From Tubiluchus corallicola (lineage: Eukaryota > Animalia > Priapulida): DNA of 64,000 nucleotides. The stretch's first letter is position 1. Every line of letters starts with the position of its first letter. The stretch lies in contig JAQGDQ010002372.1 of NCBI GenBank assembly GCA_030141605.1, forward strand, positions 62,001-126,000, in the 5' to 3' direction. Positions 945-56,049 of this stretch are shown here, piece after piece. The notes below the pieces were generated by a model, which worked only from the letters and a program-made list of their open reading frames with translations, was not told where the DNA came from and did no database searches. The position numbers and the translations under genes are program-made.

Positions 945-1220
<276 letters not shown>

Positions 1221-2285: not shown

Positions 2286-2539
2286 AAGACGAAGGTTTAA
2301 TCATTAATAAACGTTGTGCTCTCAGACCTTGCAATGTTCAACATCAGCAAGCCGTTGCATTAGGAATGGACTGCGGTTCACAATCAGGTGATCACTGGAA
2401 ATGCACAAGATGCTGCGAAGAAGACCTGTGCAATTTTAGCGCAGGAAAAAGTTTTTTGTCAAAATATACCATTAATAACTTAGCGGAAATATTCAGATTC
2501 GGCGCATTAATATTATTCGGTTGGTTAGCTTTTGTTTAA
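2286..2539 (+). CDS. Terminal exon of Ly6/uPAR (three-finger, LYPD6-like) protein, paralog 1; upstream exons not found in the window
   Basis: Polypyrimidine tract with acceptor AG at 2284-2285. Phase-1 exon translates DEGLIINKRCALRPCNVQHQQAVALGMDCGSQSGDHWKCTRCCEEDLCNFSAG...FRFGALILFGWLAFV*. It has the CCxxDxCN LU-domain terminus and a hydrophobic GPI-type tail, and is clearly homologous to exon 16633-16916. Confidence 0.88.
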
Positions 2540-22500: not shown

Positions 22501-23522
22501 AGTAGACCAATTCAAATCAAAAGTAGAATAAATGAAATATATTCTGTATATTCTCGATTATTAGCAACTTAAGATGAACCCAGAAAAAACCATTTTCATG
22601 CTTCTAAACATCAAGAGATACAACAAATATACTTTTCGATACATGTCAAATAACTTTAAAAATATTTTTAAAAATGTATAAAACCATGATCTGGTCCTAC
22701 TTAACGTATGGCTGCCACCTACTCTCAAATATATCTAAAACTTCTTTAAAGAGGCTAGAAGTGGCCCAAAGTTACGCTTTAAAACACCTCGTTGGTTTCA
22801 CAACAAGAGCAAAATATTTAGCTACACTGAACAGGGAAAAACTAAAAATACCCACTGTAGAATCCAATTTCCAATTCCATTCACTTTATAATTTTTCTTT
22901 AAACGATTTGGTGCCAGCTTTCAGTGCCAATTAGCTTCCATTTAATATCGAAAAAAATGCTAAACCAATGAACACACAGCACAAGATAAATAAATTCAAA
23001 TAATAAATATGTACAAAATTTAGTCTGTAAAACGACAATAAATACATGGAATGCTTGCCTACTTAATGTAAAAATGTGCAGTGACTCTAAAAAAAATCAA
23101 AAATTAACTGAAAAATACTATAGTAGCCTTCAAAACATGACTAATACAAAAACATCAGACAACACGTATTGTCAATTTTAACCCAATAGTCTGTAGTAGT
23201 GGCATATCAAAACCTGTCATGCATTAGCATCAAGTCAACAAATTAAAACCCACCAACACTCAAGTCACTAACACAAAACATCTATAAAGCACCTAATTTG
23301 AATTTCAATTTGTAAATATTGTAAAGTTTTAAAGTCTTAAATGTATCTTAAGCTTTAGCGTAATTTATTATAATATCATTTGTGTTTTTAATTGTAAATT
23401 CATTTTTTAACACTATTGTTCACAGCAGTGGAAACACTGATTACACTTAATTTTTGGAATGTAGTTTACAGTTCATCGATGTGTAATTTTAACAGCAATA
23501 AGGAATTTTATTATTATTATTC
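19600..23522 (+). mobile_element. Degenerate CR1/L2-group LINE (ORF1 remnant, APE C-terminus, RT)
   Basis: Fragments: EPTRITKTTSTLIDPILV...SDH (endonuclease end, ~20560-20655), NYRPI (~21557), FLDLSKVSD (~22182), GVLQGTILGP (~22356), QYADD (~22448). A 3' AATAAG plus (TTA)n tail lies near 23500-23522. Many stops and frameshifts. Confidence 0.85.
21704..22117 (+). mobile_element. Solo LTR (414 bp) inserted in the LINE RT
   Basis: Termini TGTGAAAGT...ACTTTCACA (TG..CA, 9-bp inverted) with a perfect 5-bp TSD CGCAA at 21699-21703 and 22118-22122. Internal TATATATA (~21887) and AATAAA (~22031). Removing it restores the frame FGYEKKYSTVDAKIYITQIWRYFLNDKYTASAFLDLSK. Confidence 0.88.
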
Positions 23523-30146: not shown

Positions 30147-33100
30147 ATGGAAGACCCTACTAGCTATTGTCCACCTAACATTACTTTGAGAGTTGTATGG
30201 GATCATGGACTCAATCAGTGCTTTTTAGAGACTGTTGAATCAGCCATCCTTTTTGGCATTATTTTCATTTTTGGAGGTATTACCTTTTTGAGTTTGTTTT
30301 CTCTTTTATAGAATTATTTTTCTTGTTGTTATTGTTGTTGTATTTCTCATGATCAACCTAACTGATTGCATTATTATTTTAAAGTTTTGCCATGCAATAT
30401 TATCAGCCTAACGTGTTTCTTAAAAAAAATGACTTTTGGGCTGAAGTCATTCTTTTTTCTTTGTTGTAAGTAGACAGAATAACATAATTGATGCTTAAGC
30501 TTTTTGTAAAATGCAAACAAATGAAGCAGTTAATTCAAACGTGTGTTTCTTAAATGGAATGTAAATTTTGACCATTTTTTGTAATTCTGTACGATACATA
30601 AGTGTACATTATATTTTAGGAGCACAATTGTACTTTTATCACAAATATTCTAATCTCATTGATCCCAGAATACGACCAAAAAGCTTTTTCTTCAGTCTAC
30701 AGGTAACTTGAAGCTTTTTTTTCAGTAGTTTGTGTCTTAACACATTTTGCAACTGGTGAAATTCTAAGTATAGTGTGCAAATTTCAGAAAACCCTTGCTT
30801 TTTGATCAGTTCAGTGTAAATTAATATTATATAGCTTACTATAAGATCCTGTGTAAGTAAATCACTAATATGTTGTTAAGAAGTCAAATTCAGGATACTA
30901 AATTTTCAGCACTCTAGAAAATGCCAACAGTAAGATAAGTTCTGCAACTTCTATTGGTAAAATAGCAGTGTATTCTAACCTGATATTATGTTAAGTTGCT
31001 TAGCTTTTTTTCAAATTTAAAACCCTGCTAATGTCACATATTGTACATAAACTTTTTTGAAATTTTTATTTTTGAAATGTGATACTTGAGTTTTTATTGT
31101 ATTTTTTTGTTTAGTTATTTCTGACAGTTCTTCTTGCTCTAGAAGCAGTGGTGCATTTGATTTTGTATGGAACAGTATTAGGTAAGGTATATTTGTGTTA
31201 ATTAATTAAGCATAACTAAGAAACGATGACTAATAATATCTTCATCATTTCTAAGAAATCAATCAAAAATCAATTTGAACTTGTAAAGTAGCCAAAGAGG
31301 TGTTGGCTAAGCTGATTTTAATTATACCTGATTTGATACCTGTCCAGTCTGGTAGTTTGCTTTTTACTTTGCTGTGTTAAAACTATTTTCGTTGAAGTGG
31401 TGAGCAACTTGAAAATTTAAAGAATTATTGCACAGTGGTAGATTGCAACAATGCATTCTGAAAGAGAGCTATAGAGTCGATCTCATAGTCCTGTTGCTTA
31501 TATATTTCTTTGTGTTTTCTGAAGGTGATAAGCATATTTATGGATTTATGATTTTGAGTTCCATATTCTACCTGGCTGCATATTCCATTTCTCTTGCACT
31601 GATAATCGTAGAACGACGGCGCATGCTGCCAACCGTTCCCACCAGAGGACATGGCATGATCTTGCTGATATTCTGGATGCTTGCTTTGATCAAATCAAAT
31701 TTAAGCTTTCTTAATTGGTTTAGCGAAGAATGGTGGTTCAAGCAACGCACGTAAGTAAGCCGACAGCTACAGCAAATTTTTTGTTCAGAATCCTGTGGTT
31801 TATAAGTTTTAATTGGTAAACTGATTAACAAGAAAGTAAATATTTAGTGCATTTTGAAAAGATGAAGAGAAATTCTATGTCATTGCAGAAGCATTGATTC
31901 TTTTCTCTGAAATTAATTGCTTTCTCTGCTTTTAATTGAAAGTAATAGTAATTAACTAATATAGTACAATGGAGTTGGAAAAAACAGTATAATACTCCAA
32001 GGTGTACTACGTTGTCGTATACAGTGCTGTAGTATCACTGTATTTCTTAACAAAGATGCGTCGTGAAATTAATACTTTAACAAATGATAAATCATGTTTT
32101 CTATTATTAGGTACATTTGTAACATGGAGCATTTGTTTAATTTTGATTAGTCACTTTCATTAAAGTTTATATAGTTTAATTTTTGCTGACAAAAGGTAAC
32201 ATATTGTCCTTTTTTTATAGAAAGTCAGATAATATAGAGACTGCTTTATTCGTCATAAGGTATATCTCTACTGCACTTTTGTTTATCATTGGCCTTGCAG
32301 CCCCAGGCTTACCAAGTAAGCGAACTTGGTATGCAATGCTAAGCAGAGATGTTTCAAATATAGAGGAGAACAAGGTATTTTGTTTTTTGTATATTGCTGT
32401 AAGTATAATTTGAATCGGAGTAACTTCAAATAGAATTTGCTAAAAGGTTTGCTGTTGGTGATTTGATATGTATTTCAAAGCATTAAATGAGAATTTTAAA
32501 ACTTTTTTCCATCATTTAATTGTGTTGTAATTGAAGGATTGTGATCGGGTGCTGACATAATTTAATTTTTTTTGTTAAATGAGGAACATAAAAGTCATAA
32601 CCTCATACTTGTTGATTCACAGTTTTTGAGAAGCTAGAATCTGAAAACATATTTGTATTTGTTCTAATCATTTGTTTTTTAATGCTAAGGTTATTCTCTT
32701 CGTTTGGGACAAAAACACGAAAAATAATGCTATCATTATGTATTGAAATAATAAGGAAATGTTTTCCTTGGCACATTTATAGTTTTTGTTGTTTATTTAG
32801 CCATTAACAGAAGAAACGCCACTTAGAGGAGCACATACTAATACTAGTCAGTCTACATGGACAAATGTCTGGGAAAAGACGAAGCTGATATGGCCTTTTG
32901 TATTTCCAAAGAAGAGTCTTATGCTACAACTGCGAGTTGTATTTTGTTTTTTCATCATTGCAGCTGTGCGGGGCCTGAATGTACTTGTACCTGTGTATAA
33001 TAAACTAATAGGTTTGTTATTCAATTTTTTTGTTAAAATAACGAAAATAATTGGAATTATGATAGATAAATGTGACAGTAAGTATTGAAGCACAAGTACT

Positions 33101-36100
33101 TTTTGCTACAGTAGGCTATGTACAAGTACCAGGCCATTCGAAAACTGTTTGTGTACAAGTACTTGAGTATAGGAAAGTACCAAGTATATAAATAAACAAT
33201 ACTAATATTGATTTACCAATTAAAGTTATTTCTAACATTAATGGTTTTAAACCTTCACTAAAAGCTTGATAATGTTTATAACTGTGTTGATTTATGTAGA
33301 TTATTATAGTTTTTGTAAAGTACACTGGAAGATGATTATAGTTAGAGTGCTTTACTGTATGTTTTATTTTTTGTGTTGTACAAAATATGTATTTTATCAT
33401 TTTAATGGATGACTGATGTAATACAGAGTTTGATTTAGTTAATTTGCTCGCCTTTTTAAGTTCCTCAGTGTTTTAAAATTTTCTTGTTTTTTGTTGTTAG
33501 TTTTCTTAAAGCATGTTGCTGAAGACCACATGTTAATTATTTAAATTATTAAGTTTTTTATTACATTATAGTTGATAGTTTAACCGGAGTTGATTTGGAG
33601 TTTAAATGGGACTACATTTTGATTTATGTTGTACTTCGACTGCTTCAGGGAGGAGGAACAGGTAAAAATATTGTTAATACTTTAATGTTATATTATGTAG
33701 TTGTTCGAACGCAAGTTTTGAATATGAGTTAAAGTGTACATGCCATACACTATGGTGTATGTTTGCTAGGTGATTATTAACAGATAAGTGCTTAAAAATT
33801 GTAAGGCTAATGTGTGAATGTTCAAAATTTTGGCAATATGGCGTGAAGTGCCAGCACCCACAGATGCGTGATTGTTTTTGAAACTTTTACTTCAGTAAAC
33901 CATTAATTTTGGTATAAACAGTTTTTACCTTTATTGCTAAACAAAGAGTAACAATTTTGCTGCTGCATTAGTCACTTTAAAAAGCCCACATGCTTACCAG
34001 AATTCAATTACCACACTTTTTGCCCAAATTGGGTATCGTGTCCCACCTCATTTGACTGTGTAAGACTGACTTTTTTTATCATTCATGATTACAGGTTCTA
34101 TGGGGTTGTTGAACAACTTGAATACGTATTTGTGGATTCGTGTTCAACAGTATACAGCTAGGGAAATACAAGTAGATCTCTATAAACATTTACACGGGTT
34201 TGTATTCTCAACAGTTTTTTCATAGTGCTTTCTTGCACACAAAAGCATGTGAAGATGTGCCTGCTATAAGTGAATTTAGGGCAGCTGAAAATGAAAAAAG
34301 ATTTAGTGCTGTTAAGCTAATAAATGTAATGTAGAAAGTGTGCAGGGTTGCTTGAAAATTTGTGGTGTGCATTGACATACTGATACCGACGACTAGATAG
34401 CCAGACGTGTTTCATCGGCAGTCTGTTTTCTAATTAAACAACATAAGAGATACAAAACCCAGAGAAATTATTACAATAGTGCTTTATGATTAATGGTGAT
34501 TGATTTTTGCAGTAGTTTTTATGTAATTTTTCCAAAGCTATATTTTTTTGATAGGTTATCACTAAGATGGCATTTAGGAAGAAAGACTGGAGAGGTACTC
34601 AGAGTGATGGATAGAGGCACAACAAGCATAAACACTTTGCTCAAGTATCATATTTATTACTGTCTGTTACTAACTATCATTATTAAATGTTTGCAAAACA
34701 TGGAGTTGCCACAATTAACAAATAATAACCTTTTCAATTATAGTGAGTAATACTTTGAAATTTAAAGTGCAAATGCCTGAACATTCTACCTTCTCTGGGT
34801 TGCTATGATGATTATTTTGATTTAGTCCTTATACTGCTTAAAGTGTTTTTGATGAGACTTTTGCAAGTCTACGTTATTTTAGGTAGTAATTTATTATATA
34901 GGTTATGTGGACATATTGTTTCCGCAGCTAGTGCTTTAACTTTATTATCTTTTGTCAATTTATACATCAGTTGAAAGACTTTAATATATTTATTATTAAT
35001 GATTTAAAGAATTATTTTTAACAAATGCTTGCTAGAAGGGCAAGAAGTAAAAAACTCTTAATCTTGAAGTAATGAGAATGCATATGGGTCTGGGTCCAAT
35101 AACAGTTGGATTGTTCGTTTATTAGTGAGCATTACAGGCCTATTGACGTTTTATAGACTGACACCAGCCAGTTAATTTTTTTGCACAATTTTGTTTGTTT
35201 GAATAAGTACACAAATTTATTTTTATTTACATGTTTTCAATATTGTGTTTTTCAATTATGCACTATTCAACATAATAGCTAAAGCATTTAGTGGATTTTT
35301 TTAAGTAGGTATAGTGATTCGAAACAAATTTTGTTGTTTCCGATATTGTTTTGCAATCATGATTATTGTGATTAATTCCTACAAATGTCATATTTTTTTG
35401 TTTTCAGCTATATTATATTTAACATCATACCAACAATAGTAGATATTATAGTTGCAATTGTTTACTTCGCAACTACTTTCAACTTGTGGTTTGGCCTCAT
35501 TGTTTTCCTGACAATGATGCTCTATTTAGGTATGTATTATGTACCTGATATGTATGTATTATGTATTAAATAATACATACCTTACTTTAACTTTTGTTAG
35601 TTCAGTGGAAGGAAAGTATAGGTCGAATTTTTCAGGCTTTTCGGTTTGTTGCACTGACATTTGCTTGTCACTGAACAAGAACATTTGATGATGCTGACAT
35701 CAGTAACGGAACTTTCCTATGGTATATTATCTCACGGACATTATGTCTTCTAATGACAAGGAAGATCTTTTTTCACACGGCTAAGTGGTTTGAAAATGTT
35801 TTGCGTATCCGCACGGTCACTGGCTATTTGTTAGACGACATGTTGTGTGCATTGCTAACATCATGCCATTCAAATGATTTTAGTCTGAAACAGTTTGAAA
35901 ATGGTTCCAAATTACCTCCCAAAATGGTTCCAAACCAGTTTTGTGCCCCAACACTGTCGTGTGAACACTCAAACCAACTTTTTTAAAATGGTCTACATTT
36001 GCTGTTTTGAAAGGTATGCATATTATGAAGCTGCTTTGTTAAATACTATAGGATACAAATCTTTTTGTTTATCCTCATGTATGATAGATGTCAAGAGAGT

Positions 36101-39100
36101 ATTGTTTTGTGTATGAGACTGAAATTACACTCTACATTTTTATCTGTTAATTTCAAAATTGCATATTGCATTCAGATTTTTTATGATAGAGATTTAATTT
36201 GATGTTAAGGTTAATTTGGTTTATTATTTATTACAGTGTTTACAATACTCGTCACAGAGTGGCGCACGAAATTCAGACGTCGAATGAATTTACTTGATAA
36301 TGAAACCAGAGCAAAAGGAGTTGATTCACTATTAAATTTTGAAACGGTATGCAGATTTCTAAATACGCATTTAAATATACAGATACCCATAGACATAGAC
36401 ATAGGCATGTTTATTTATCTCTTATAGTGCACATTTACATGAAATACATAGCTGATTAATCATATAAAATTTACATGAAAATAAGAGGAAGAATATATAT
36501 TAATAAGTGATTACATGGGTGCAAGAGAAAGGGTAGCAAAATTAAAGGAAAAAGGGTACAATAACTAGTACCTGGTATATAGATAGCCTAGATATATAGT
36601 ATATAATAAATAGAATATAGTTCCCCAGAAAGTCAGGTTTTTGCATAATATAAATTTGCATTTTCAACACAACTCATAACTTCTAAGCATTAATTTGTGT
36701 TGCTTAGGATTCTCCTGAACAGGTTTCCTTTTCTAACTTTGTTTTGCTTGTGTGTTTAGGTGAAGTATTATGGAGCAGAAGATTATGAAGTACAGCGTTA
36801 CCGAGCAGCTATACTTAAATTTCAGGAAGCTGAGTACATATCCACAGCTTCTCTCAACCTACTCAATATGGTGCAAAGTTTTACGATAAATGCTGGGCTG
36901 TTAGCTGGTTCTTTGTACTGTGCCTGGTTGGTCGTTGGTGGAAAAGGATTGACTGTTGGTGATTATGTGCTGTTTTCAACTTATCTGATTCAACTGTATG
37001 TTCCACTGAATTGGTTTGGCACATATTACAGGTAGGACTGTTACTAATGTTCATTAATTGGAATCTTAGAGTGTAAGCTGATTTAGAAATTAGTGTCAGT
37101 TGATCATGAGAACTCAAAAACTGGCTGCATATATAAAAAAATTTCTACTGTTTGAAAATGTGATTTTAAGAGAGATCTAATTATGGTCAAGATGCAATTT
37201 TTTTAATCAGTTTAATCAATTGAAAGTTAATCTAATGAAATAGTGCAATGAAAAATGATCTTGAACATTTCTTTTGTTCACTAGGCGCCGTTTATTAGAC
37301 TCACGGTTAATAGACTCAGTCGCCTAATTGACTCAAAAACGTCTGGTATCGGCCGCTCCTATTCAAATGTATATAAAAACTGTCGATAATTGACTCAATT
37401 TTTCCTTCACATACTTAAAATAAGACACTTGTGTATGCCCAAAGATCTTTTACTGCTTTTATGTCAACTTTACGTCAATTTTGTGCATTATTAATATACA
37501 TAGAAACAGTTATGTTAGGTACAGTTTTTGTTTGTAAGCAGGCTCAGTATGTTTATCATATGCGTTAATGGTTTTGCTTTGAATCTGACACCCCCTCATC
37601 CACCTGCAGTTAACCTTGTTGGTTCTGGAAGCTAAACATTTAATCAGTTGTCCAGCAGTTTGCTTTTGAAGTTCCTACTGCTTTTCACAGGGGAAACAAG
37701 GTCATTGCCTACTGTAGTTCAAGCACTAAGTGACTAGGTGGCTTGCTTGAATATGTGCAGTATACAGCAACAGATTTTCAATGTTTTCATCATTATGAAA
37801 TTTTATAAACTTCTGCGTGAAGAAGTGAAGCAACAAACCTTGAATATTCGTAATATTTAGTGGTAATAATCAGATTACCGAGATTTTTTATTTTCTTTTT
37901 TATAAATTCACTTATGCACATAGTGTTCTTAAATAATTGCACATCAATAGGAATTTTGACATTAATTCATTTCGAACATTCATTTAAAGCCTTTCCAATG
38001 CATACTATGGTGATGCCTGATTACTCATACTTCTATAGTAATAGGCTACACCCTTTCTAATTGAATTAATCAGTTAGTTGGGTCAAAACACTTCCATCCC
38101 AAAGTGAGTCTATTAAAATGTAAAATGTTTATAAAACTTTTTTTGTTCTCCTACAGCACAAACATTGAACAAACTCACTTATCCAAATACGTAAAATCCC
38201 AGATCCTTTGTTGGAACGCAAATTGCACTAAATTATAACTTGTGAAATTACTAGCAGCTAGCAGATTGAATGAACTTTTTCATGTGAACAATGTAAGCCA
38301 AATTATATTAGCTAGCAGAAAGTATTTGAATTTTATGAGGCTAGGTAAATAAATATTTTGCGGAATTATACCTTCCAGTCATCCCAGCAAAATTTGAACA
38401 AAAAGTTTTTGGATAAAGTAGCAGAGGTACAAGAGTGCACATTTCACACGTATTTGATTATCATTTCTTTAGATGCAAGTGCTTTATGTATTGTTTGTAT
38501 TTATTTTTGGTATTTATGGTATTTTATTAAGTTACCAAAACTCATTTTTCAACAGGATGATACAGCAGTCCTTTATTGATATGGAGAACATGTTTGATTT
38601 ACTAAACCAGAAACAGGAAGTGCAAGACACACCTGATGCCTTAGACTTGCGTGTATCTAGTGGAAAAATAGAATTTAAAGATGTCTGCTTTCAATATGAT
38701 GACAGGTCTGCAAGTTTTTACATATTGATGTTCAGCTAACAGAAAGTATTTGAATTTATAGGTTATAGGTTCTAGTGCTCTAGGTTATTGTAGCTGCTAC
38801 AAAACAAAATAAATTCAAATTGCTTTTGAATGCACACATTTGTTTAAATTCAAATATTTTTTTGATAATATGAAGTAGTTAGAAAAAATTTAGAGTAAGT
38901 TTTCACATTAAATATCACATTGACACAGCGAGTTAAGTAAATTGTATTTAAGTGGCAATCAAGATTTACAACAAACTAACACTTCCAGAAAACAGCTTTT
39001 GAATATGAATATTTGAGCCTTCAAGAAGATGCAGTGTTGCTATAACATATGTACTTCCCACTCTTCCACTTTGGTTGTCATCCAGTTCAGTTCTCTGTTA

Positions 39101-42100
39101 TTGTTGGTGAATAAATGTACTTATTTATTCGTTATAATAGTATTACGAGAGGGCCTATAGAAGAATTAATCACATCTTGTTTAACTAAGCAATTGATATA
39201 TTGCTCCAAATATTATCTTTTATGGAGTTCTTTTAATTTTGCAATAACTAAATCACTTATATGGAGTGACACTCTTTATTCTGTTTCCCAACAACACTTC
39301 TCTCTCTTTGCCAAAATTGGTCACATTTGATAGTCTGTACTGCAGTATGTGGCTCAAGACCGCTAAGTGTAATTATTTGGCTCAGGAACTTGTGATATTG
39401 CTTTTAAGATGTTTTGCAGATACTTCGTTATTGTTTTGTAAAGTTATTAAATTTTTCGTAATTGTTTATGTAGTTGAATTGAACTATACTTTTTTCTGAT
39501 AATATGAATTTAGTTTAAGTATTTACCGTATATACTTATGTACAAGTCGAATTTTTGGGAGGCAATTTTCAAGGTGAAATTTTTGGAGTCGATTTATACT
39601 CACGATATGTTTTTGGGAGATGTTGCTAAAGAGTCGTCTACAATAGGAATATGTAAAGAAATAATCCTTCACTATATGCTGGACTGAATGAACACTCATA
39701 CTGTGATACTTCACATCAGAGAATGTTTGCATCTTGACATTACTTCACAAAATTAACAAATATTACTGTAATTTATTTTAATGTATGTGAAATTAAGTTA
39801 AAATTTATATATTACCAGTAAATAAACTAGCGACGGAGCACTTGATCAGAACATGGAATTGCTTATGATGTTACTGAATTAAACTGTGACGTTTCAGATA
39901 TGAGTTTTTAGTTATAAGTGAGAAATCAGCGACTGAAATGTTACGACGGATCCTGACCGCTATATCCTAGAGTTAAAGGCATTACAAACAAATTATGCAC
40001 GATGAAAGGCCAGGCTGTATTATCTTGGATTGCATTGAGGGCCCTCAACATGAATACACACACACACACACACACACACCACACACTGGTTAGATATAAT
40101 ATACTTGGCCCAGGCACTTGTACGTATCTTACACACTAACACAGTAGGCTGCTATTGATTTATTACTCGGCCATTGTTGACATCATTTACTTTGGAAGAT
40201 CTTAATATTTTATGGTGGAATTGTGCACAGGTAATATATAAAATGATGCAATTTTTGGTCTTAAAATGTACAACACCGACTCGTACATAATGCTGACTTG
40301 TACACACGTATATATGGTATTTCCAGATTCTAGGAGTTTTTTTATTGTCTTTCCTGCTTAATTTAAGGGATCACTTCTGAAAAGCATTTAGTATCAATTT
40401 TTTTCTTGTATTTGTGAAGGAGGCAAATATTGAAGTCTGTTTCGTTTACTGTCGAGCCTGGACAAACAGTGGCATTGGTATGTTTAGATTTTTTAATCAG
40501 TAGCATTTGAATAATGCAGAGGTTTTTAAAAATTTAAAAACAGAGATTTATAGTTTAGCAGGACAAGCAGTATAAGATATCATGGGTACAATACTCCTTC
40601 TAAGCTGTTTCATTTGTCGTACTGCCTGAGGGAAATATAGTCTTACTGAGACAGCATATACACAAATGTAGCTGAGATACTTTTGCTGGTCATGTGTTTT
40701 ATCTTAGAGAATTATCCTGCTACGAGTTTGTATGTTGAGTAGGTCTTGGAACAGTGTGCTGGGTCTCAGCTCACTGAATGCTGAATTGCATGAAAAATAC
40801 CATTAATCATTAATAATTGTGCAGTTAACATTTATATATCTGCAGTGATTTTATGGGTGAGTATTTTCTGATGCAGGTTGGTCATACAGGAAGTGGAAAA
40901 AGCACCATTGTTCGTTTGATATTCAGGTTCTACGATGTAAATAGTGGCAGTATACTTATCGATGATCAAGATATCTCGCAGGTAATATGAATGAGGATGC
41001 TAATTTATAAACTGGGCAGTGTGATGAATTAATTTATACTTTGAAGTCTACTATCTTTCGTGTGCACACTTATTAAAGTTTTTTGTATGAGTGACTAATT
41101 TCTATATAATTGGCAGCGAGATGCTTTTCTATGAGTACTCTGAGTCTTATGTTGAAAAAGGTGGTCTCCTTTATGAGCACTTAACATTAGCATTAGCACA
41201 TTACCTTACTGTTTAAATTATGGAGCACACTATGTGCTGTAGAATGAATAATTTTTAAATTTCCCCATTTGAGCATTTTTATCACAGATTCTACATTACT
41301 TTTTTTTACAGGTTAAACAGTCTTCTCTTAGAAAGACTATTGGCGTAGTCCCTCAGGATACTGTTCTTTTTAACGACAACATCATGTAAGTTTGTTTTGC
41401 CCAGTTATGTTATCTACTGCACATAAAAGCTAATATTGTGTGAGTTATTTGACTTCCTGAATGCCAAGTAACTGTTTTTAACTGTTTTCTAAACAAATTG
41501 AAATCCAAATAATTTTGAAAATTGGGTACTTTGATACCTCTATAAAAAGTTTTGCAACTTGCCATGTGAGATTAGTTATAGTCAGAAAAAGTACCATTAT
41601 TCGGCTAGCAAGAAGTCAAACAAAAGCCTTCAAGCTTATTTTACTGTGATGATAACTGAATTGTCACATACTTGTCTTACTCAAGACACATATAATTAAT
41701 ATAATAAGAGAAGCCAGCCATGCAGTTGAGCATGACATCTGCTTTTACCCTATCCTGAATATTTGCGTGATGACTTGAGTACGCTTTACATTTTCTTGCT
41801 TCTTATTTGGACATTGGATTGATGGTTGTCACATGGTAGCAAAGCCACTGCATTTTTAAGTTTGACAACCTTGATGTCAGGCAACGTGGGACACTTCGTA
41901 AATGTTTATGAATGTCTTTTTTCTGATGTCATCATTAAAAAAACACACCTGCCGATCATATGGTTTTCTTAATACATTCTCCTGGTGTTCACAGGTTTGA
42001 ATGCACAAGCTCCATCAAAACTTAAAATGACTTTGATCTGATGCTCTAGCATTGTGATAACCTTGTCCAACTAAATATGTTTTTCACAGGATTCTTAACT

Positions 42101-45100
42101 ATGCCGAGTTTAAGTAAATTATTTGATTGACAAAACTGTGATAATGAGAAATTTTCTGGCATTGCTGGTTCAGTGCAAAAAAAAAATTGTAAAAAACAGT
42201 ACATTATTTTGTAATTTATGTGCTCAAAGTCTTCTGCTTCTTTATGCACATTTCTCTGTCTTAAATATTGTTTTTTATGTTTTGTATTATCCAGGTACAA
42301 TGTTAGGTATGGCCGAGTGACTGCAGAAGATGAAGAGGTGGAAAAGGCTGCGAGAGCTGCTGAAATACATGACAGGATAACTACATTTCCTGATGGTAGG
42401 TAGCACTAGTTGATGATAGCTGTTATAATAAGCTACTGTATTTCTGCCCTGTAAGATGCACTGACATATAAGTGGCACCCTCATTTTGTAGAGCAAAATC
42501 AAAATTAACAGATTTTTAGCCTCTGTTAGGTTTTAAACTCAGTAATGGCTCATGATTCACATTTACAATTTGCAGACGACTTTGTCCTGATTGTTTCTTT
42601 GAGTCACACTACCCAGTGCACAACTGCTAGTGTATCAAGTTACAAGATTGTGAGCTCTAGTCATTTCATATTTGCATGATAGAAGCGGTTGTATAAGACA
42701 TAATTTAAAAGTTAAAAGTGGTTTTTAGCTTGACCTTCATCTGTAATCATTTAACCTGCAATAAAAGGTGCGCATGTCAATTGCCATTAGTATATTTGCC
42801 TGTTATAAGTGCAGCAATAGCGTTGTCGTCTATATTAGGCCTCCTCAATAAGATCCAAGCTGCTTTTAGCATGGTTTTTGACTTTCTGCTGGAAAAAAGC
42901 ACATTTCATGTGGTGAAAAATATGGTACACACCTGTGAAGGGCAGTGGTTTTAGTGGTTTAATATTGATGAAAATCCATGTATGTTATAATAGTTGTAAA
43001 CTGTTTGTTACAGGTTATGACACAACAGTAGGAGAACGTGGGTTAAAACTGAGTGGTGGAGAAAAGCAACGAGTGGCCATTGCTAGGACGATACTGAAGG
43101 CTCCCCAGATTGTCTTGCTTGATGAGGTGAAGATTTCTTATACTTTTTCCCTAATTTTAGTAAAATCACTTATTACTTGAGATTTAACAGTTTTGACTAT
43201 CTAAGATAGCTTTGGTTTTGACATTAGCACAATTAACTCTCGAAAAAATTTTAATTGCAGTGAGTAGAACAAGTAAGAAAAGTTAATGTCTATCTCATGG
43301 TTAGCATTTTGAACTTTTGTATAATGAACAACTTAAATATAAAACATCTTGCAAGCATTTTGGTTTTTGTACTGGAAAAGTAAAGGGATGCTTATCTATG
43401 TGGAAGGGAAAGTTTTAGAAGCATGTGATGATTGCAAGTAGACATCAAAAAATTGATTGAAATTAAATGATTTATGCAGTTAGTAAGCTATAGTTCTTAA
43501 ACTGGTTATCCTGATGGCAAACAAATATTTCAGATTGAAAGTATGAACATGTGCTGTTTTAAATATAATTTCAAGAAACAAGGTTTTTAATTTGCTGGGT
43601 GAAATTTTGTTTTATAATATTATATTACTGCTGTACTATGTATGTGAGTTCTTAATTTAGGCTAATTTTGTGGAGTTATTAATGTAGGTATTATTTTTTA
43701 AAAACAATTGAGCCTATGAATTGCAAAAATTAACATAAATGAATAGTAGTTCTAAATTTCGATAGTTGCTCGCAAACAGCTTACAAATAAAAAATTTCAA
43801 ATTATATTTAGGAATAGTAGTGTAAGGCATAGTTCACAGTACAACACTGTATGGTACAAACGACAATACTGACATTATTTAATTACTTAGCTAAACAAAG
43901 GCTTAGCAATGTATGCTGTGCTACCAAAACAGTATTCACAGATCACTTTTATTCATAATTCATTGTTGTTCCATAGCAGTGTGTGAATACAAATAATCTC
44001 GAAAATAAATCACGACTTGAATATCGATGTGTTTACAAATAGTACCACTATATACTGTTTTTGCTGGGAGGCAAAGGCACATTAATAACACGATTATATT
44101 AATATTCATATTGTGCACCATTAGCAGTTTTCGCTGTGGGAATAATCACAGTTTTCACTTTGTAAATAGCAGTGTTATGCATTAGTCACTGTTTTAACTG
44201 TCTGAATAGCTTTAGCTGATACAATGGTCACTACTTTCATACATATCATACACCAGATTGCAGTCTTCACTATGTGAACAGGTATATTTTGCAAGTTTTC
44301 ACTGTATAAATAAAATCCCTCTGTTCCTTTTCCATTTCTTTATTGTTGGGTATTTGTTAATTAAAAGTAAAAAGTAAATAGTAAATATAGTATAGTGCTT
44401 AATGATATTTAATGAACTAGTGGTGTGATATTTTGACTGTGAGTATCTTGTCTAGTTTTTTGATTAATTCATATGCATATTTGACAGGCAACATCTGCTT
44501 TGGATACTAAAACTGAGCGAGCAATTCAGTCGTCTTTAGCAAGGGTTTGCGCAGGAAGAACCACTTTGGTAGTGGCTCACAGGTATAACACAGTTGTCAG
44601 TGATTTTTTGCTGGGAAGGCTAATTTTTGTTTTACTCTTACATTTAGTATGGCTGCTGTTTTCCCTAATATTTAATAGGCTACATTTGCAAAGTTTTTGA
44701 ACAAGCCTGGACTTTCATTTAAAGATAAGTAAAGGATAATTAAAATAAATTAGTAAAGACTTGTGGACATTTCTTGAGACGTCCGCATTGTATTTAGAAT
44801 GTATCTCCATCAGAATGGATAGTATCTATGGTACTGGTGATCTACATCATTGAGCTTTAGTATTAGAATACATGGATTTGTGAGTTATCTAACTCTGTCG
44901 TAACTTTTTCGAATGATGTGTGATGAGAGGTACTCTAACCTTGAACCAAAAAACAAAAAAGTGATAGAAAAGTATTGTAATTGTAATTTATTGTCTCCTT
45001 GTGTTAAAAGATTGTTAGATGACAGAAAAATTAAGACCAGATAAAGTCATGCAGCCAGCTGATTTGTGTGAGCATTTTTTGACAGAAAATTTGAGAGGGA

Positions 45101-45748
45101 GACTTAATCAGTAATACCTGCTATAATGTCATTTAGGCTTTCTCTGATTTATTATTCTTAACACTAATATAATTTCATTGTCACGAATTCAATTTTTTGA
45201 TGCCTGAAAAAGGTATCGTTGTGGCTTATACGAGCGTGATGTTTTGAATGAATTTCTGTAAATGCACTTGTGTATATAATAGTTTACTTACTGAAACATT
45301 AAGTATTATACCTTTTGTACAGGTATTATAAATTATTGAAATGTTGTTTGAGTTTCTTAATTATCCCTAACACAATTTCTCTTAGAGTTGCCGAACCAGC
45401 AGCTGACAACATAGGCAAGACTCCAACAACTTTTATTATTTTAAAATGCAGTAAAGTTGGATAAGTTGACTGACTGCTGTTGGTCACTTTAGTAAAGAAA
45501 TATTGATTCTCTCTCATTTTAACCTCATTTGCAGACTATCAACTATAATACATGCAGATTTAATACTGGTATTGCGAGAGGGGGAAATTATTGAGCGAGG
45601 GAGGCACGATGAATTATTACTACAAAATGGAGCTTACGGCAGTATGTGGCAAGAACAGCAACAAAAACATAAAGAATCTTCAGAAGATGTTCTTATAAAC
45701 CTCGGTGATGATGAAACCAACGGGCCATCTGCTGGCAGTCAAAGTTAA
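30147..45748 (+). CDS. ABCB6: ABCB6 / HMT-1 ATP-binding cassette half transporter (20 exons, 855 aa)
   Basis: Exons: 30147-30276, 30620-30702, 31115-31181, 31525-31750, 32221-32374, 32801-33011, 33572-33661, 34095-34197, 34555-34644, 35408-35529, 36237-36346, 36760-37031, 38556-38705, 40420-40477, 40877-40981, 41312-41385, 42295-42395, 43014-43126, 44488-44582, 45535-45748. All introns are GT-AG and phase-consistent; the total is 2568 nt. Motifs: TMD0 N-terminus YCPPN...[56 protein letters not shown], Walker [11 protein letters not shown]-loop VVPQD, signature LSGGEKQR, Walker B VLLDEATSALD, H-loop AHRLST. Confidence 0.96.
37285..38120. mobile_element. Tc1/pogo (Tigger-like) deletion derivative in ABCB6 intron 12
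   Basis: Left ccgtttattagactcacggttaatagactca with repeated taattgactca. Right inverted end gtgagtctattaaa. Confidence 0.55.
39526..40317. mobile_element. Tc1/mariner (pogo-like) non-autonomous element in ABCB6 intron 13, TA TSD
   Basis: TA|CCGTATATACTTATGTACAAGTC ... GACTTGTACACACGTATATATGG|TA inverted termini. Contains (CA)n at ~40056-40086. Confidence 0.8.
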
Positions 45749-50227: not shown

Positions 50228-50263
<36 letters not shown>

Positions 50264-50282
50264 AGAGAGAGAGAGAGAGAGA
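50228..50282. repeat. (TA)n followed by (GA)n; 3' flank of the LINE
   Basis: Directly visible: (AT)n at 50228-50260 and GA run at 50261-50282. Confidence 0.95.
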
Positions 50283-50605
50283 TTTTTTATTATTATTACA
50301 ACTCTATTTTATTATATATATTAACATAAATACATACATAATATACATAAATTCCCTCTATTTGCAGGGACCAGTATGAACATGATTATAATAAGTTGGA
50401 AAATAATTACAATTATCCCTTTTAATATCATTTGTGACTATGATAACAGTAAAACGCTTATATACAAAAACATATCAACAACTAGAGGCAACATAGCTAG
50501 ATTTACATTTAAATTTATATTTACCTAATTTTATAAATAACTCTTACTTTTATATTTTCATTGACGGGTAGCAATCTAATTATATAAAATGACAGTGACT
50601 GGACT

Positions 50606-53600
50606 TCACATTTTTAAAAATAAACTCCACGTTTTTTCGGCTATATTTTCCTCTTTAGCATTTTTAACAATTTCTACAAACGCATTAATAGCATTTCTAC
50701 TTCTTATTCTGTATATATCCTTAAGTTGCCTAGATGGGAGTGCAGTTTCAAGTTTCCTTCTGAGTTCGTCTTTTATTAGAGGACAGTTAAAAATTATATG
50801 TTCTGGCGTTTGGCTGTTTGCATTGCATTTACACATATCAGCTTCTATCAGACCGATTCTATTGCTAAATTCATTACAACCTCTCCCTAATAATAAGTTG
50901 AAAGCAATGGTTTCAATAACACGTTCATTTCTTGTTATTTGCAGATCTAAAGGTTTTGCACAAACTTTAACTTCTTCCAAAGGGTTTCCAGCTAACTGGT
51001 TTCCAGCAACAGTTTTCTTTTCCATAGAAACTCTAGGAATTTTTGACATTCTTTCTTTGTGTATTTTAAATTGTCTTGTGGAATTGACTGTAACATTTCA
51101 TTTCGATTTGCGTTTAGACCTTTAATGGTTTTTAAGAATAATCTAGTCTTATTTAGGTGTTCTGCCAGGAAATGGTTCCAATATTCAGCACTGATGTAAT
51201 TCTCATCCGCCTTAATTAGTTCTTTTCTGACTAAGTCATCTGCAGGTAAAGTAAGTAATTTCAATACTGACTTAACAGATAAAACAGAATAAATAACATC
51301 CATTGATGGTAGTCCTGTAATTAATTCAGTTTCAATTCTTGGAGGATTAAAACCTACTCCTGTTGCCGTTTTTAACATATCATATAGTATATCATCAAAA
51401 GCCGTGATGTTCTTTGCTAACCATGCTATCGAGGCGTACAAAATCGTTGGAAGTACCATGATATTAAAAAGTCTCAAAATTGTCTTCATATGCAAACCTT
51501 TGTGCCGGAAACAAAACTGCTTTATCTGGTGCCATGTTTTCCACGCCCTTTTCCTGGTATCTAGCACGTGAGTGTTAAAATTTAATTGATTGTCCACTGT
51601 GACACCCAGCACTTTGCTTTTTCTTACATAATCAATAGGATTATTTCCAAACTTGAGGTTTGGTGGATCTGGTTCCCAATTCAAAATTTTTGAGTTCTTG
51701 TACAAAATGGCTTCAGTTTTGTTTTTGGCACAGTTTATGTTCATCCGCCACTTCTTACACCAAGTGTACAGTTTATCACAACATTTTTGTGCTTTTAAAT
51801 AACATTCATAGTTTGTGTCAGCTGCGATTAGCAAAGAACCATCATCTGCATATTTAAATTTTCCACAGCTTACTTCATCATCTATTGATTCAAACATGTC
51901 AATAACATACAACAAAAACAGTAATGGTGACAAAACGGAACCTTGTGGGAGACCCAACTGACAATTGTACTTTGGAGATGTGTGACCATTAATACGTAAA
52001 ACAATATTCCTATTTTTTAAAAATGTACTAATAAGACACAACATGTTTCCTTTAATACCATATTGATACAACTTGTACAATAGCCCCTTTATCCAAACAC
52101 TATCGAAAGCTTTTTGAAAGTCGCAAAGAATTGCAATGCAGCTTGTTTTAAGTAAATTTGTTCTAGTCAGGTTAGAAATAAGCCTGACCAAGTAGCGTAC
52201 TGTACTGTGTCTGGGCCTGAAGCCTTCTTGCTCATCATCAATAATGTCATATGCATTACAAAATTGTCTTACACGATTTTCAACAAGCTTTTCTGCTAGT
52301 TTTCCATAGTAGGAGGTAATGCTGATAGGTCTATAATTATTAGGGTCACTATAATCGGACTTGCCATTTTTTTTATAAATGTAACCTTTGAGTCATTCCA
52401 TGGCCAAATATTGCTGCCTAAGCAAATGTTGACTATATTGAGAAAGGTGGCTTTAGCCCAAAATCCCATGTTTTTTATCATTAGTGGATGAAACCCATGA
52501 ATGTCTATGCTCGTGTTATTTGTTTTAACACTTTTTATCGCATTATTTAGTTCCCTCATGTTAAATTTATCATTTAGCCATGTATGCTCCACAGCTATTT
52601 GTTGATCAATTTGCTGGTCAACAATTTCTTCGATTTCTTCAAACCATGCATTATCAAATGAATTAGGATTTATATGTTCTCCACTAAAAATGTTTTGTAC
52701 ATGAGTTTACTTTTGTCATCATCACTTACGTAATCTTTACCCTGCACTTTTAGGCTTTCTATTTCGTTACTGGATTTAGTTTCAAAAACGCGTTTATATG
52801 TTTTCCAGAACTCCTTACCTTGTGCTACATTTAAGTTTTCAGTATTTTTGTCAATCCACTTATTCATTTCTAAATGCAGCGCGTCACTAAACTCTGACTT
52901 GGCTTCCACATAAGATTGCTTGTTTTCGTAATTGGACATCTGCAGGTAATTTTTCCTGCAAAGCCTCACTTTATTACTTAATTTTGTTAACTGACTAGAC
53001 CAGAAAGGTTTGCTAAATTTTGTTATCATTTTCTTATTTAGTGCTTCTTCGTTTGCATTTTCTATGACCTTTCGGAGCTGTACCCAAGCACTCTGAACAT
53101 CTTTGGCCTGAATAAGTTGATTTAGTTCATGAAATTGTTCTCTTACTTTACGTTCCAGAACACCTGACCATCTGTACCAATCACTATTCTTAAAATCGTA
53201 CACACAACGAACTACTTTATCACTTTCCGATAGTTTACATTTAATTTTACTTATAACAACAAAGTGGCCCATTTGGGGTGCTCCCGAAAAGAGCTCTGTA
53301 TCTTTCTCTACATATTGCTGACAAAGTTGGGCAGAAAAGTTTTGGATAGCTAATATAACATCAATCGTACTAGAACCTGTTGCAGAACTGAATGTGGGTT
53401 CGTTTGGCGTAATAATGACGTGCTCACCATTGGCCTGATTTACGAAGTTGTGAAGTTGTATGCCATGTTCATTGTCAATCCTATCCCAGAGAATATTACG
53501 GGCGTTTAGATCGCCTATAGCCGCAATACTGTATATACCGTGTTTACTGCCGAAAGAAGCTGCTTTCTTGTACATTAATAACCATTTTCTCATTTGTTCA

Positions 53601-53974
53601 GGTGAATTTGGTTTTATATATACAGATCCTATTAACATTTTAGTATGCGGCGTATTTAAGATAACCCATACAACATCTAAATCTGAATCGCTTGCATCTG
53701 ATAAGTACAACATGTTACTAGCAATATTTTCTTTTATATACAAGGCTACTCCACCAGAGTAATTGCTCACGCCTTCTTTGAAATAACCTTTGTAATTTGT
53801 TAATTTTGGCTGTAAATTTTTAGTGATTTTCGTTTCCTGTACTGCCACCACATCAAAAGACATACTGTTTGCGTAATTGTCTAAAGCTAACCTCGATCTA
53901 TCTGACATATTGTTTATATTGATTTGACAAATAGTAATCGAGTCTTTTACTTTGACGTCTTGCAAATTTGCCAT
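50606..53974 (-). CDS. LINE ORF2: APE endonuclease + reverse transcriptase + C-terminal CCHC; three single-base frameshifts (~52685, ~52367, ~51000)
   Basis: APE motifs QININ, VAVQET, GGVALYI, GDLNA, PTF...STID. RT motifs NYRPISITS, DFQKAFDSVW, GLPQGSVLSPLLF, KYADD, KVLGVTVD. C-terminal CKC...TPEHIIFNCP. No in-frame stops apart from those created by the frameshifts. Confidence 0.92.
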
Positions 53975-53975
53975 T

Positions 53976-55437
53976 TTATGCATAATCACTTAGTCGTTTG
54001 GCTTCATTTACGTAAAGTGCACAACTTCTGTCCCATGCCGCGTGCGATTCGCCACAGTTTGCACACGTTAACTGTTCTGAAGTACACTCGTTTGATTCAT
54101 GCTTTCCTGAGCATTTTCCACATTTGGGGCCTCTAGTACACCATTTCGCAATGTGTTTGTACCCCTGACACTTAAAACATCTGAGTGGTCTTCTCTTAGG
54201 AGCAAACTCTTCTACCGAGCACATCATTTGACCGATTGGTATGCTTTCCTGGACTGCTTTTGTGAGATCGTCTCCTGTCTGGAACGTAACTTTCACTAAT
54301 GGCAAGTTTTTCCCGTCTTTTCTTTTGAAGCGTTCAATCTGGATGTTGTCATAGTATCTTTCTATATCAGAGCGTATTTCTGCGTCGCTCAAGCCCGTAT
54401 CACAGTCACGCAAGATCCCTATACGCGGAGATACTGGCTTTCTTACGCGAGTACCACCTCCCAAAAATTCTGGCTTCCAGTTCTTTATCATATCGTTTGC
54501 TGTTGTTTTGTCTGGGACTTGTAATTGAATTTTCCCTCTGGATGTTCTGAAGGCAATATCAAATTTCGTTCTCGGAAAATGTGCACACAAATTCTTCTTA
54601 ATGTTAATGCTGGAACTGACGAGATGTTTTTCGCTCACATTTTCTACAATGACAGTTTTATCAGGGTCATATGGACGAGGAGATACTTGTAGTGTTACTT
54701 GTCTTGGCTGTTTCAGAGAATGACGTTGGCAGGTTCTTTCTGACTGCATTGCTATATAAAGGTTTGCCAGTTTGGCCTGATATTATTTGTGACATCTTTT
54801 TGTCTAGGTTTACAACCAAGTTGTTAACTGTTTCCAGTTTTTCTAATGTTTGTTGCGAATTGTCATGTCCTCTCATAACATTTATGACTATCCTTAGTTT
54901 TTCAACATCTTTTGACTTCTTGATTAAATTTACAGCTAATGCTTTCATTTCTGTGACTGAGCTATATTCAGTGTCATCTGCCTCGCTAGTACTGCCGTCA
55001 TTGTCATCCTGTATGCTGTCATTATTATCGTTATCAACACCATCATAACTATCTACGTCAGAATCACCGTCAGCGTCGTTTACAGCAGAAAACCTGCCAT
55101 CGAGGGCGGCGCCACGCTCATTTGTTTGCTGGCTATTATAGCGTTGAGAGGCTTCGGACTGTTTTGTGTAGCAGCGGTTACAGATGACAGCAGTAAGTTT
55201 TGTAGGCCAAATAGGCGATGCAGTTTTTCTGCAAATATCGCAGGCTGTTTTCTTCGGATTTATGCATTGCTGACTAAGGTTTTCATCACAACTATGGGTA
55301 GCAGCACATTTAGCACATACAATAGCACTAATCTTTTTAGGTTGCACTGGTCTCTGGGTAGACCTACATATTTCGCAGCTCCGGCGTTCTTTGGCTTTGT
55401 GTTGTGTTTGAGATGCTAACTGGTCTGAATCCGCCAT
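53976..55437 (-). CDS. LINE ORF1 (gag-like) with two N-terminal C4 zinc fingers, an acidic tract, a coiled coil and 3 CCHC knuckles; one frameshift near 54700
   Basis: ATG at 55437 (agcATGG). The 261-aa and 257-aa ORFs overlap and most plausibly join. Knuckles: CFKCQGYKHIAKWC, CGKCSGKHESNEC, CANCGESHAAWDRSC. Confidence 0.85.
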
Positions 55438-55762
55438 GCTTCTGAGCCTCAAATAGGCCTGATTGTTGGCCTATTCAAAGTTGTTGACTGGCTTAATTAC
55501 CTAGTCCAACCAGTGCAGGTACAAGTGGCTATAGTTGCAATAATATTTTCTAAACAAATAGTTATTTCTTTACCTCAAGATTTCTGCCTGTCTTCAGGTT
55601 CTTTGCAGTTGAAAATATCACCAATGGATTGTTCACCACTTTACGATTGTCACACTATAAGTTTTGCCACAAAACTTTTCGATAAACTATTAAAAAAATT
55701 ATAGTTCGCTCGTAACGAAATACTCATGAGTCTATGTGAAGTCACGCTTCACGCGAGAGCGT

Positions 55763-56049
<287 letters not shown>

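What the first reader, a model, noticed from the sequence alone, without database searches (positions are those of the whole stretch)
55171..55377. Two GATA-like C4 zinc fingers at the N-terminus of LINE ORF1
Seen: two repeats, CEIC-RSTQRPVQPKKISAIV-CAKC and CDIC-RKTASPIWPTKLTAVI-CNRC. Both are Cx2Cx16Cx2C and they lie 45 aa apart. Known: GATA fingers are Cx2Cx17Cx2C with a T-x-T-P-L-W ... L-C-N-A-C core, and finger 2 has TASPIW ... ICNRC in that register. I-group ORF1s normally carry RRM-like plus CCHC knuckles; PHD fingers are known in CR1/L2 ORF1s. I am not aware of paired GATA-like fingers in a LINE ORF1. Inference: a captured DNA- or chromatin-binding module that could steer the RNP to GA-rich repeats, which is where this copy sits.
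Basis: partly seen in the sequence, partly recalled or inferred. Interest (0 to 1): 0.85.

Follow-up and report, generated by a model that had tools for sequence, protein, structure and literature searches.

The report
Duplicated zinc finger in LINE ORF1
A broken copy of an animal jumping gene (a LINE) starts its packaging protein ORF1 with two copies of a small four-cysteine motif that a related LINE carries once; the motif likely binds zinc and likely helps tether the element's RNA-protein particle in the nucleus, and it is probably not a true GATA DNA-reading domain.

Summary
Observation confirmed: ORF1 of a frameshifted LINE (50283-55764, minus strand) has two Cx2Cx16Cx2C motifs 45 aa apart, ahead of an acidic linker, a likely coiled coil, an inferred RRM region and three CCHC knuckles. 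The one ORF1 relative found (P0004, 43-46% identical) has a single such motif. So the unit is one conserved C4 finger, present here as a tandem pair, not one PHD. Finger identity between the families (14/30) matches the RRM and knuckle regions. The GATA likeness is confined to finger 2 (6 of 6 signature positions; finger 1 has 3, P0004 has 2). GATA spacing is not met, Pfam GATA gives no hit, and each finger's best weak PDB match is a different zinc-finger family. Models were too poor to fix the fold. The copy does sit in (TC)n on both sides, but published work assigns target choice in such LINEs mainly to the endonuclease. Verdict: an unclassified, likely treble-clef C4 finger in the N-terminal accessory slot that PHD or CR1-type fingers fill in other ORF1s. 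New variant of a known kind; GA-steering unsupported but not excluded.

The parts
50283..55764 (-). Full-length but frameshifted APE-type LINE (I-group-like by recalled motifs; clade not tested by a tree)
53976..55437 (-). ORF1, about 486 aa, with one frameshift near 54668 that contigs of other copies do not share
55306..55377 (-). C4 finger 1, aa 21-44, Cx2Cx16Cx2C
55264..55296 (-). Inter-finger His48, Cys50, Cys58 (Cys58 is Arg in other copies; His48 has a counterpart in P0004, Cys50 does not)
55171..55242 (-). C4 finger 2, aa 66-89, Cx2Cx16Cx2C, the only one with the GATA-like T-x-S-P-I-W and C-N residues
54958..55110 (-). Acidic low-complexity linker, aa 110-160 (17 D/E, 1 K/R)
54733..54957 (-). 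Likely coiled-coil region, aa 161-235 (11 of 21 a/d positions hydrophobic; inference)
54192..54665 (-). Conserved RRM-like region, aa 258-415 (label inferred from position; Pfam gave no hit)
54021..54179 (-). Three Gag-like CCHC knuckles, aa 420-472
52670..53989 (-). ORF2 5' part with APE endonuclease (PF14529 E 5e-11, PF03372 E 7e-8)
50992..52392 (-). ORF2 reverse transcriptase (PF00078 E 1.5e-33)
50606..51097 (-). ORF2 C-terminal piece with a Cys/His motif (CxCx7Hx4C); no RNase H seen
55765..56047 (+). (GA)~141 tract, i.e. (TC)n directly 5' of the element
50261..50282 (+). Short (GA)n tract, i.e. (TC)n directly after the element's (TAA)3A6 tail, followed by (AT)16

Best explanation
The two motifs are tandem copies of one conserved four-cysteine unit of this LINE lineage's ORF1, each predicted to bind a single zinc in a treble-clef fold, and they likely act as a basic, non-sequence-specific tether that helps the ORF1-coated RNA particle engage chromatin or a host nuclear protein, while the ORF2 endonuclease likely picks the (TC)n site. 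Shown: the motif, its duplication, its single-copy presence in a relative, its conservation at the level of the RRM and knuckle regions, its net positive charge and its N-terminal position ahead of linker, coiled coil, RRM region and 3 CCHC. Inferred: zinc binding, the fold, the tethering role and the division of labour with the endonuclease.
For: P0004 (E 6e-94, 43% over aa 165-486) has exactly one Cx2Cx16Cx2C and no further CxxC in its first 180 aa. Across the three fingers 4/4 Cys and 3/20 other positions are invariant (Fisher p 0.003, partly circular because the Cys define the motif). Finger identity is 14/30, against RRM 87/158, knuckles 33/65, coiled coil 18/66 and acidic linker 10/34 (finger versus linker plus coil p 0.047). 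Most weak hits are treble-clef-type families (membership of GATA, ArfGAP and ZAD in that group partly recalled): Pfam zf_Tbcl_2 E 0.017, GATA-1, LIM of CRP1, grauzone ZAD, ArfGap E 1.4. A treble clef is knuckle, loop, hairpin, helix with two ligands at each end (PMC4999995, passages), which fits CxxC...CxxCYxK. The fingers are basic (K+R vs D+E: 6/1, 5/1, 8/3). The same slot holds a PHD in type IC ORF1s, proposed to aid genome targeting (PMC4120745). Endonuclease swapping changes the insertion site in TRAS1/SART1, while ORF1p has a localisation role (PMC1919474, passages).
Against: No hit passes a curated threshold. Finger 1's best PDB match is the TFIIB zinc ribbon (E 0.68), which is not a treble clef. 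Both AlphaFold models were helical and low-confidence (pLDDT 64, pTM 0.35-0.39) and show no hairpin. Only one outside relative was found, and its DNA context could not be seen. No functional data exist; PMC4120745 states that even LINE PHDs had not been studied functionally.
Confidence: 0.45

Rival explanations
1. The finger is a self-association or structural module, working with the coiled coil to build ORF1 multimers, like the ZAD domain or the zinc finger/leucine zipper of CR1 ORF1s.
For: The only PDB hit of the three-finger profile is grauzone ZAD (E 0.57; ZAD dimerisation is recalled). A zinc finger/leucine zipper is described at the start of CR1 type IVB ORF1s (PMC4120745). ORF1 proteins generally multimerise (PMC3905857, passages).
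Against: The ZAD match covers only the C-terminal CxxC plus helix. A long acidic linker separates the finger from the coiled coil here. CR1 spacing x14 (recalled) is not met.
Confidence: 0.2
2. The module derives from, or folds as, a PHD-like cross-brace: Cys21, 24, 41, 44, His48, Cys50, Cys66, Cys69 would bind two zincs, making this an eroded type IC ORF1.
For: A relaxed C4HC3 pattern matches the window protein. His at +4 after the last Cys is kept in finger 1 and P0004. A PHD-type arthropod cluster is among the look-alikes of the whole P0004 (score 0.88, PHD_Pygo on 44% of members). The slot is the PHD slot.
Against: The strict PHD pattern fails. P0004 lacks the Cys after His and the closing CxxC. 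Cys66/69 are the first knuckle of a duplicated unit. No PHD hit in Pfam at E up to 10. The Atlas score is a lead only and reflects the whole ORF1.
Confidence: 0.13
3. One reading: GATA-derived fingers read GA-rich DNA and steer the RNP to (GA/TC)n microsatellites.
For: Finger 2 matches 6 of 6 GATA signature positions picked after seeing the alignment and retrieves GATA-1 at E 0.0077 (summed over two GATA fingers; single finger E 0.25), with 4 of its 5 PDB hits being GATA. The copy lies in (TC)n on both sides, where such tracts make about 1% of the rest of the window. 2 of 6 distinct 5'-side junctions of other copies shown with 19 or more loose letters are GA-rich.
Against: Finger 1 has 3/6 and P0004 2/6 of those positions; Trp is Gln in both. 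Neither retrieves GATA, nor does the profile. No Pfam GATA hit. The W-R-R after the Trp is W-P-T, and the basic tail of GATA is replaced by a polar then acidic stretch (GATA contact residues recalled). GATA reads WGATAR, not (GA)n (recalled). 4 of 6 junctions are not GA-rich. (TC)n-targeting Kibi elements are known, and targeting is attributed mainly to the endonuclease (PMC3812793, passages).
Confidence: 0.12
4. The finger is an extra RNA-binding accessory that helps ORF1 recognise or chaperone the element's own transcript, or one of the two copies is a dispensable relic.
For: Basic charge. ORF1's established role is RNA packaging (PMC4120745). P0004 has only one finger.
Against: RRM-like and CCHC modules already cover RNA binding. 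Both copies kept all four Cys despite only 37/72 DNA identity, which argues against a relic.
Confidence: 0.1

Closest known systems
Type IC LINE ORF1 (PHD + coiled coil + 2 RRM + 3 CCHC; CR1 subgroup 3, L2 subgroup 2; PMC4120745)
   Same: N-terminal zinc-binding accessory domain ahead of coiled coil, RRM region and three CCHC knuckles
   Different: C4 unit, single in the relative and double here, instead of a C4HC3 PHD; ORF2 looks I-group-like rather than CR1/L2 (recalled motifs)
CR1 ORF1 zinc finger/leucine zipper (type IVB; turtle PsCR1, Kajikawa 1997, title seen in the reference list of PMC3747384; Cx2Cx14Cx2C spacing recalled)
   Same: A non-PHD Cys finger at the start of a LINE ORF1
   Different: Spacing x16, tandem pair, acidic linker before the coil, RRM/CCHC body instead of an esterase
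GATA zinc finger (PF00320; GATA-1/2/3)
   Same: C4 finger of similar length; finger 2 has T-x-S-P-I-W and C-N in GATA register; two fingers in tandem
   Different: x16 rather than x17-18; signature incomplete in finger 1 and P0004; no W-R-R and no basic tail; no Pfam hit
ArfGAP C4 finger (Cx2Cx16Cx2Cx4R, PMC2542466)
   Same: Identical Cys spacing; weak Pfam match of finger 1 (E 1.4)
   Different: No catalytic Arg at +5 in any finger; rest of the 130-aa domain absent
zf_Tbcl_2 (PF23477) / TIGR04272 CxxC-x17-CxxC
   Same: Best profile match of finger 2 (E 0.017 and 0.011) over most of the 37-position model
   Different: Below cut-off (15 bits vs 27 and 36); only 1 of 3 fingers matches in the single-finger scans
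Kibi (TC)n-targeting APE-type LINEs of fish (PMC3812793)
   Same: APE-type LINE found inside a TC microsatellite
   Different: Family-wide targeting not shown here; Kibi is Tx1-clade (recalled), this element looks I-group-like

Membership tests
GATA zinc finger | Cx2Cx17-18Cx2C spacing | tested here: not met
   x16 in 3 of 3 fingers
GATA zinc finger | Conserved T-x-T-P-L-W and C-N-x-C core | tested here: not met
   6/6 in finger 2, 3/6 in finger 1, 2/6 in P0004; not conserved across the family
GATA zinc finger | Pfam GATA match at the curated threshold | tested here: not met
   not listed at E up to 10; phmmer to GATA-1 for finger 2 only
GATA zinc finger | Treble-clef fold with one zinc | tested here: inconclusive
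   low-confidence models; fold searches uninformative
GATA zinc finger | Sequence-specific WGATAR binding | not testable with these tools
   needs EMSA/SELEX
PHD finger (type IC ORF1) | C4HC3 ligands with canonical spacing, conserved in relatives | tested here: not met
   strict pattern fails; relaxed pattern fits the window protein only, not P0004
PHD finger (type IC ORF1) | Position N-terminal to coiled coil, RRMs and 3 CCHC | tested here: met
   RRM label inferred
ArfGAP domain | Cx2Cx16Cx2C spacing | tested here: met
   motif from PMC2542466
ArfGAP domain | Catalytic Arg at x4R and 130-aa domain | tested here: not met
   Pfam E 1.4 over 36 aa only
CR1 zf/lz finger | Cx2Cx14Cx2C next to a leucine zipper (recalled) | tested here: not met
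   acidic linker intervenes
APE-type non-LTR retrotransposon with type I ORF1 | APE + RT in ORF2; CCHC knuckles in ORF1; A-rich/simple-repeat tail | tested here: met
I superfamily clade (I/Nimb/Outcast/Loa etc.) | RT phylogeny | not testable with these tools
   no reference LINE set available; assignment rests on recalled motifs
Microsatellite-specific LINE | Most copies inserted in the same repeat | tested here: inconclusive

The most novel reading that the evidence does not exclude
A LINE lineage captured a GATA-type finger into ORF1, this family doubled it, and the pair binds GA/TC-repeat DNA (or a GA-repeat chromatin factor) to guide the RNP to (TC)n microsatellites: an ORF1-encoded, DNA-reading targeting module in an APE-type LINE.
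Probability: 0.12. Interest if true: 0.8.

Novelty: new variant of a known kind. Interest (0 to 1): 0.4.

Why it matters
LINE ORF1 N-termini are known to swap accessory domains (PHD, zinc finger/leucine zipper, esterase), but what those domains do is largely untested. This adds an unclassified C4 finger to the set, with natural one-finger and two-finger versions, in a multi-copy family that has at least some association with TC microsatellites. That makes a compact test case for whether ORF1 accessory fingers contribute to target choice or only the endonuclease does. If the fingers did read DNA, it would be an unusual targeting route for an APE-type LINE.

Tried and rejected
No genome is held for this window, so copies, flanks and dN/dS could not be taken from an assembly. 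Homolog searches with the finger region found nothing usable: (0 of 7 candidates; 0 of 356), Atlas by features best 0.78. The HMMER scan of 1.84 billion representatives gave one hit, P0002, a fish protein of 57-aa tandem repeats that lacks the motif; rejected as a repeat-inflated score (hhalign probability 1.2%). Locus scans confirmed no relative: metagenomes 0 of 251 and 0 of 107 stretches, viral 0 of 205, prokaryote genomes 0 of 185. AlphaFold models were low-confidence and all-helical; Foldseek (best E 6.5) and VIA-align (best Z 4.6, helical hairpins) carry no information on the fold. The homodimer job with zinc gave no answer. No RNA holder was listed and the one possible RNA run laid no contigs. 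Within-family variation is too shallow to test Cys conservation: 5 non-synonymous and 2 synonymous sites in the finger codons, 0 of 8 motif Cys hit, chance 0.38. Earlier scan notes: nothing. A shuffle control of finger 2 against the GATA-1 sequence was left out, so the strength of that resemblance rests on the phmmer E-values. Paper searches for a GATA or treble-clef finger in a LINE ORF1 gave 0 papers (the phrase in 54 was narrow); a search for GATA contact residues gave nothing relevant.

Full report
OBSERVATION. The minus strand at 50283-55764 holds a full-length non-LTR retrotransposon. ORF2 has an APE endonuclease (PF14529 E 5e-11) and a reverse transcriptase (PF00078 E 1.5e-33) and is broken by three frameshifts. 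ORF1 begins at ATG 55437 and has one frameshift near 54668; contigs from 3 of the 4 runs laid carry two more bases there, so other copies do not share this break. Read with X at the break, ORF1 is 486 aa. Cys 21/24/41/44 and 66/69/86/89 form two Cx2Cx16Cx2C motifs 45 aa apart, as reported. Of 9 six-frame matches to Cx2Cx14-20Cx2C in the window, 2 are these, 2 span this ORF1's CCHC knuckles and 5 lie in one low-complexity tract. The two motifs are duplicates: 11/24 aa, non-Cys similarity reached by 0 of 100,000 shuffles, and only 37/72 DNA identity, so the duplication is old.

ANATOMY. Behind the fingers come an acidic linker (aa 110-160; 17 D/E), a likely coiled coil (aa 161-235), a conserved region in the RRM position (aa 258-415; Pfam silent, so the label is inferred) and three CCHC knuckles (aa 420-472). 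The host is an animal by inference: the window also has intron-split ABCB6-like exons (PF16185, PF00664). On the element's strand the 5' flank is (TC)~141, and the (TAA)3A6 tail is followed by a short (TC)n tract. GA/TC tracts make about 1% of the rest of the window.

FAMILY COPIES. Four DNA-type runs from two studies hold the element in many variant contigs (125, 28, 71 and 52 laid), consistent with a multi-copy family; depth is not a copy number. In the finger codons 7 variable sites were listed (5 non-synonymous, 2 synonymous) and none touches the 8 motif Cys, but chance alone gives that with probability 0.38. More telling, the extra Cys58 is Arg in 3 of 3 covering runs, so it is not a ligand. 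Of 6 distinct 5'-side junctions shown with 19 or more loose letters, 2 are GA-rich and 4 are not (10 and 2 further rows were not shown). A (TC)n preference is therefore suggested, not shown.

THE ONE RELATIVE. Searching with ORF1 aa 165-486 gave 1 hit among 950 candidates: P0004, 408 aa, E 6e-94, 43% identity, from a 1.7 kb contig. It starts with a single Cx2Cx16Cx2C and has no other CxxC in its first 180 aa. It is about equally close to finger 1 (12/30) and finger 2 (14/30), which are 12/30 to each other. Either this family duplicated the finger or the P0004 lineage lost one; an upstream finger outside the called gene cannot be excluded because its DNA was not seen. Invariant across the three fingers are the four Cys plus R+5, K+15 and A+18. 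Finger conservation (14/30) equals that of the RRM (87/158) and knuckle (33/65) regions and exceeds the coil (18/66) and linker (10/34). The autonomous unit is therefore one C4 finger under selection.

IS IT GATA? Finger 2 alone does resemble GATA: 4 of its 5 PDB hits at E up to 10 are GATA-1/3, best E 0.0077 summed over two GATA fingers and 0.25 for a single finger. It has 6 of 6 signature positions chosen after the fact. The resemblance does not generalise. Finger 1 has 3/6 and hits TFIIB (E 0.68) and ZAR1. P0004 has 2/6 and hits the LIM protein CRP1 (E 6). The three-finger profile returns only grauzone ZAD (E 0.57). Pfam lists no GATA or PHD at E up to 10; the best is zf_Tbcl_2, 'probable treble clef', E 0.017 for finger 2, mirrored by TIGR04272. 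The x16 spacing is the ArfGAP signature (PMC2542466, passages), but the catalytic Arg is absent. From memory, GATA's base contacts need the Arg after Trp and a basic tail; finger 2 has W-P-T and a polar then acidic tail. A GATA ancestry with decay in two of three fingers remains possible; GATA-like DNA reading is unlikely.

IS IT A PHD? His48 and Cys50 let a relaxed C4HC3 pattern fit the window protein, but the strict pattern fails and P0004 lacks the last three ligands. The fold could not be settled: two AlphaFold runs gave pLDDT 64 helical models and their fold searches are uninformative.

MECHANISM. Most weak matches fall in the treble-clef group, defined as knuckle, loop, hairpin and helix with two ligands at each end (PMC4999995, passages); the TFIIB ribbon is the exception. 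The fingers are basic and sit where type IC ORF1s carry a PHD that has been proposed, without functional tests, to help genome targeting (PMC4120745, parts 1-3 of 6 of the text plus passages; supplements not read). In target-specific APE LINEs the endonuclease determines the site in a TRAS1/SART1 swap, while ORF1p of SART1, HeT-A and TART has a localisation role (PMC1919474 and PMC4700185, passages). TC-targeting Kibi elements exist and their targeting is believed to rest mainly on the endonuclease (PMC3812793, passages). I therefore favour (0.45) a one-zinc treble-clef accessory that tethers the RNP to chromatin or a host nuclear factor without reading a sequence, doubled here, perhaps for avidity. 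Rivals: self-association (0.2), eroded PHD (0.13), GA-reading GATA-like pair (0.12), RNA accessory or relic (0.1).

NOVELTY. N-terminal zinc modules in LINE ORF1s are known: PHD and zinc finger/leucine zipper (PMC4120745), and the turtle CR1 finger (title seen in the reference list of PMC3747384; its spacing is recalled). I found no description of this x16 finger or of a GATA-like pair: 'GATA' occurs 0 times in the main text of PMC4120745, and searches returned 0 papers, while searches listed 4, 4, 1 and 2 papers, of which four were opened (passages or parts) and none of what I saw reports it. The library lacks most subscription journals and Repbase Reports, so this is weak evidence of absence. 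Verdict: real and conserved, a new variant of a known kind of ORF1 architecture; the GATA and GA-steering reading is mostly unsupported. Interest 0.4.

Noticed in passing
window 54233-55214 (table 5; table 7): Contigs in runs X1 and X3 skip about 980 bases of ORF1 or run from 55214 into 255 or more unrelated letters. This may be a non-autonomous derivative that keeps the LINE's 5' end, finger 1 and half of finger 2.
   Followed up: no
window 55380: A more divergent subfamily contig in run X2 has a 15-base in-frame deletion just before finger 1, so the leader length varies while the finger is kept.
   Followed up: no
window 31413-45748 (+): Exons of an ABCB6/HMT1-like half transporter (PF16185 E 7e-28, PF00664 E 2e-9).
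   Followed up: partly
window 2255-2539 and 16599-16916 (+): Two paralogous exons ending in C-x2-CCEEDxCN, Ly6/uPAR (three-finger) like; Pfam only weak (PF16975 E 0.52 for the first, none for the second).
   Followed up: partly
window 21010-22934 (+): Decayed second LINE (RT fragment PF00078 E 2e-4), CR1/L2-like by eye, unrelated to the main element by blastn.
   Followed up: partly
window 946-1221: A second long (AG)139 tract with no copy of the element beside it, showing that such tracts are common in this genome.
   Followed up: partly
window 55745-55765: The element's extreme 5' end carries a short palindrome (CGCTTCACGCGAGAGCGTGAAG on the + strand) whose centre is GAGA, directly against the (GA)n tract.
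   Followed up: no
P0002/P0005: Fathead minnow proteins made of 57-aa tandem repeats with a short likeness to the tail of finger 2; judged a chance hit.
   Followed up: partly
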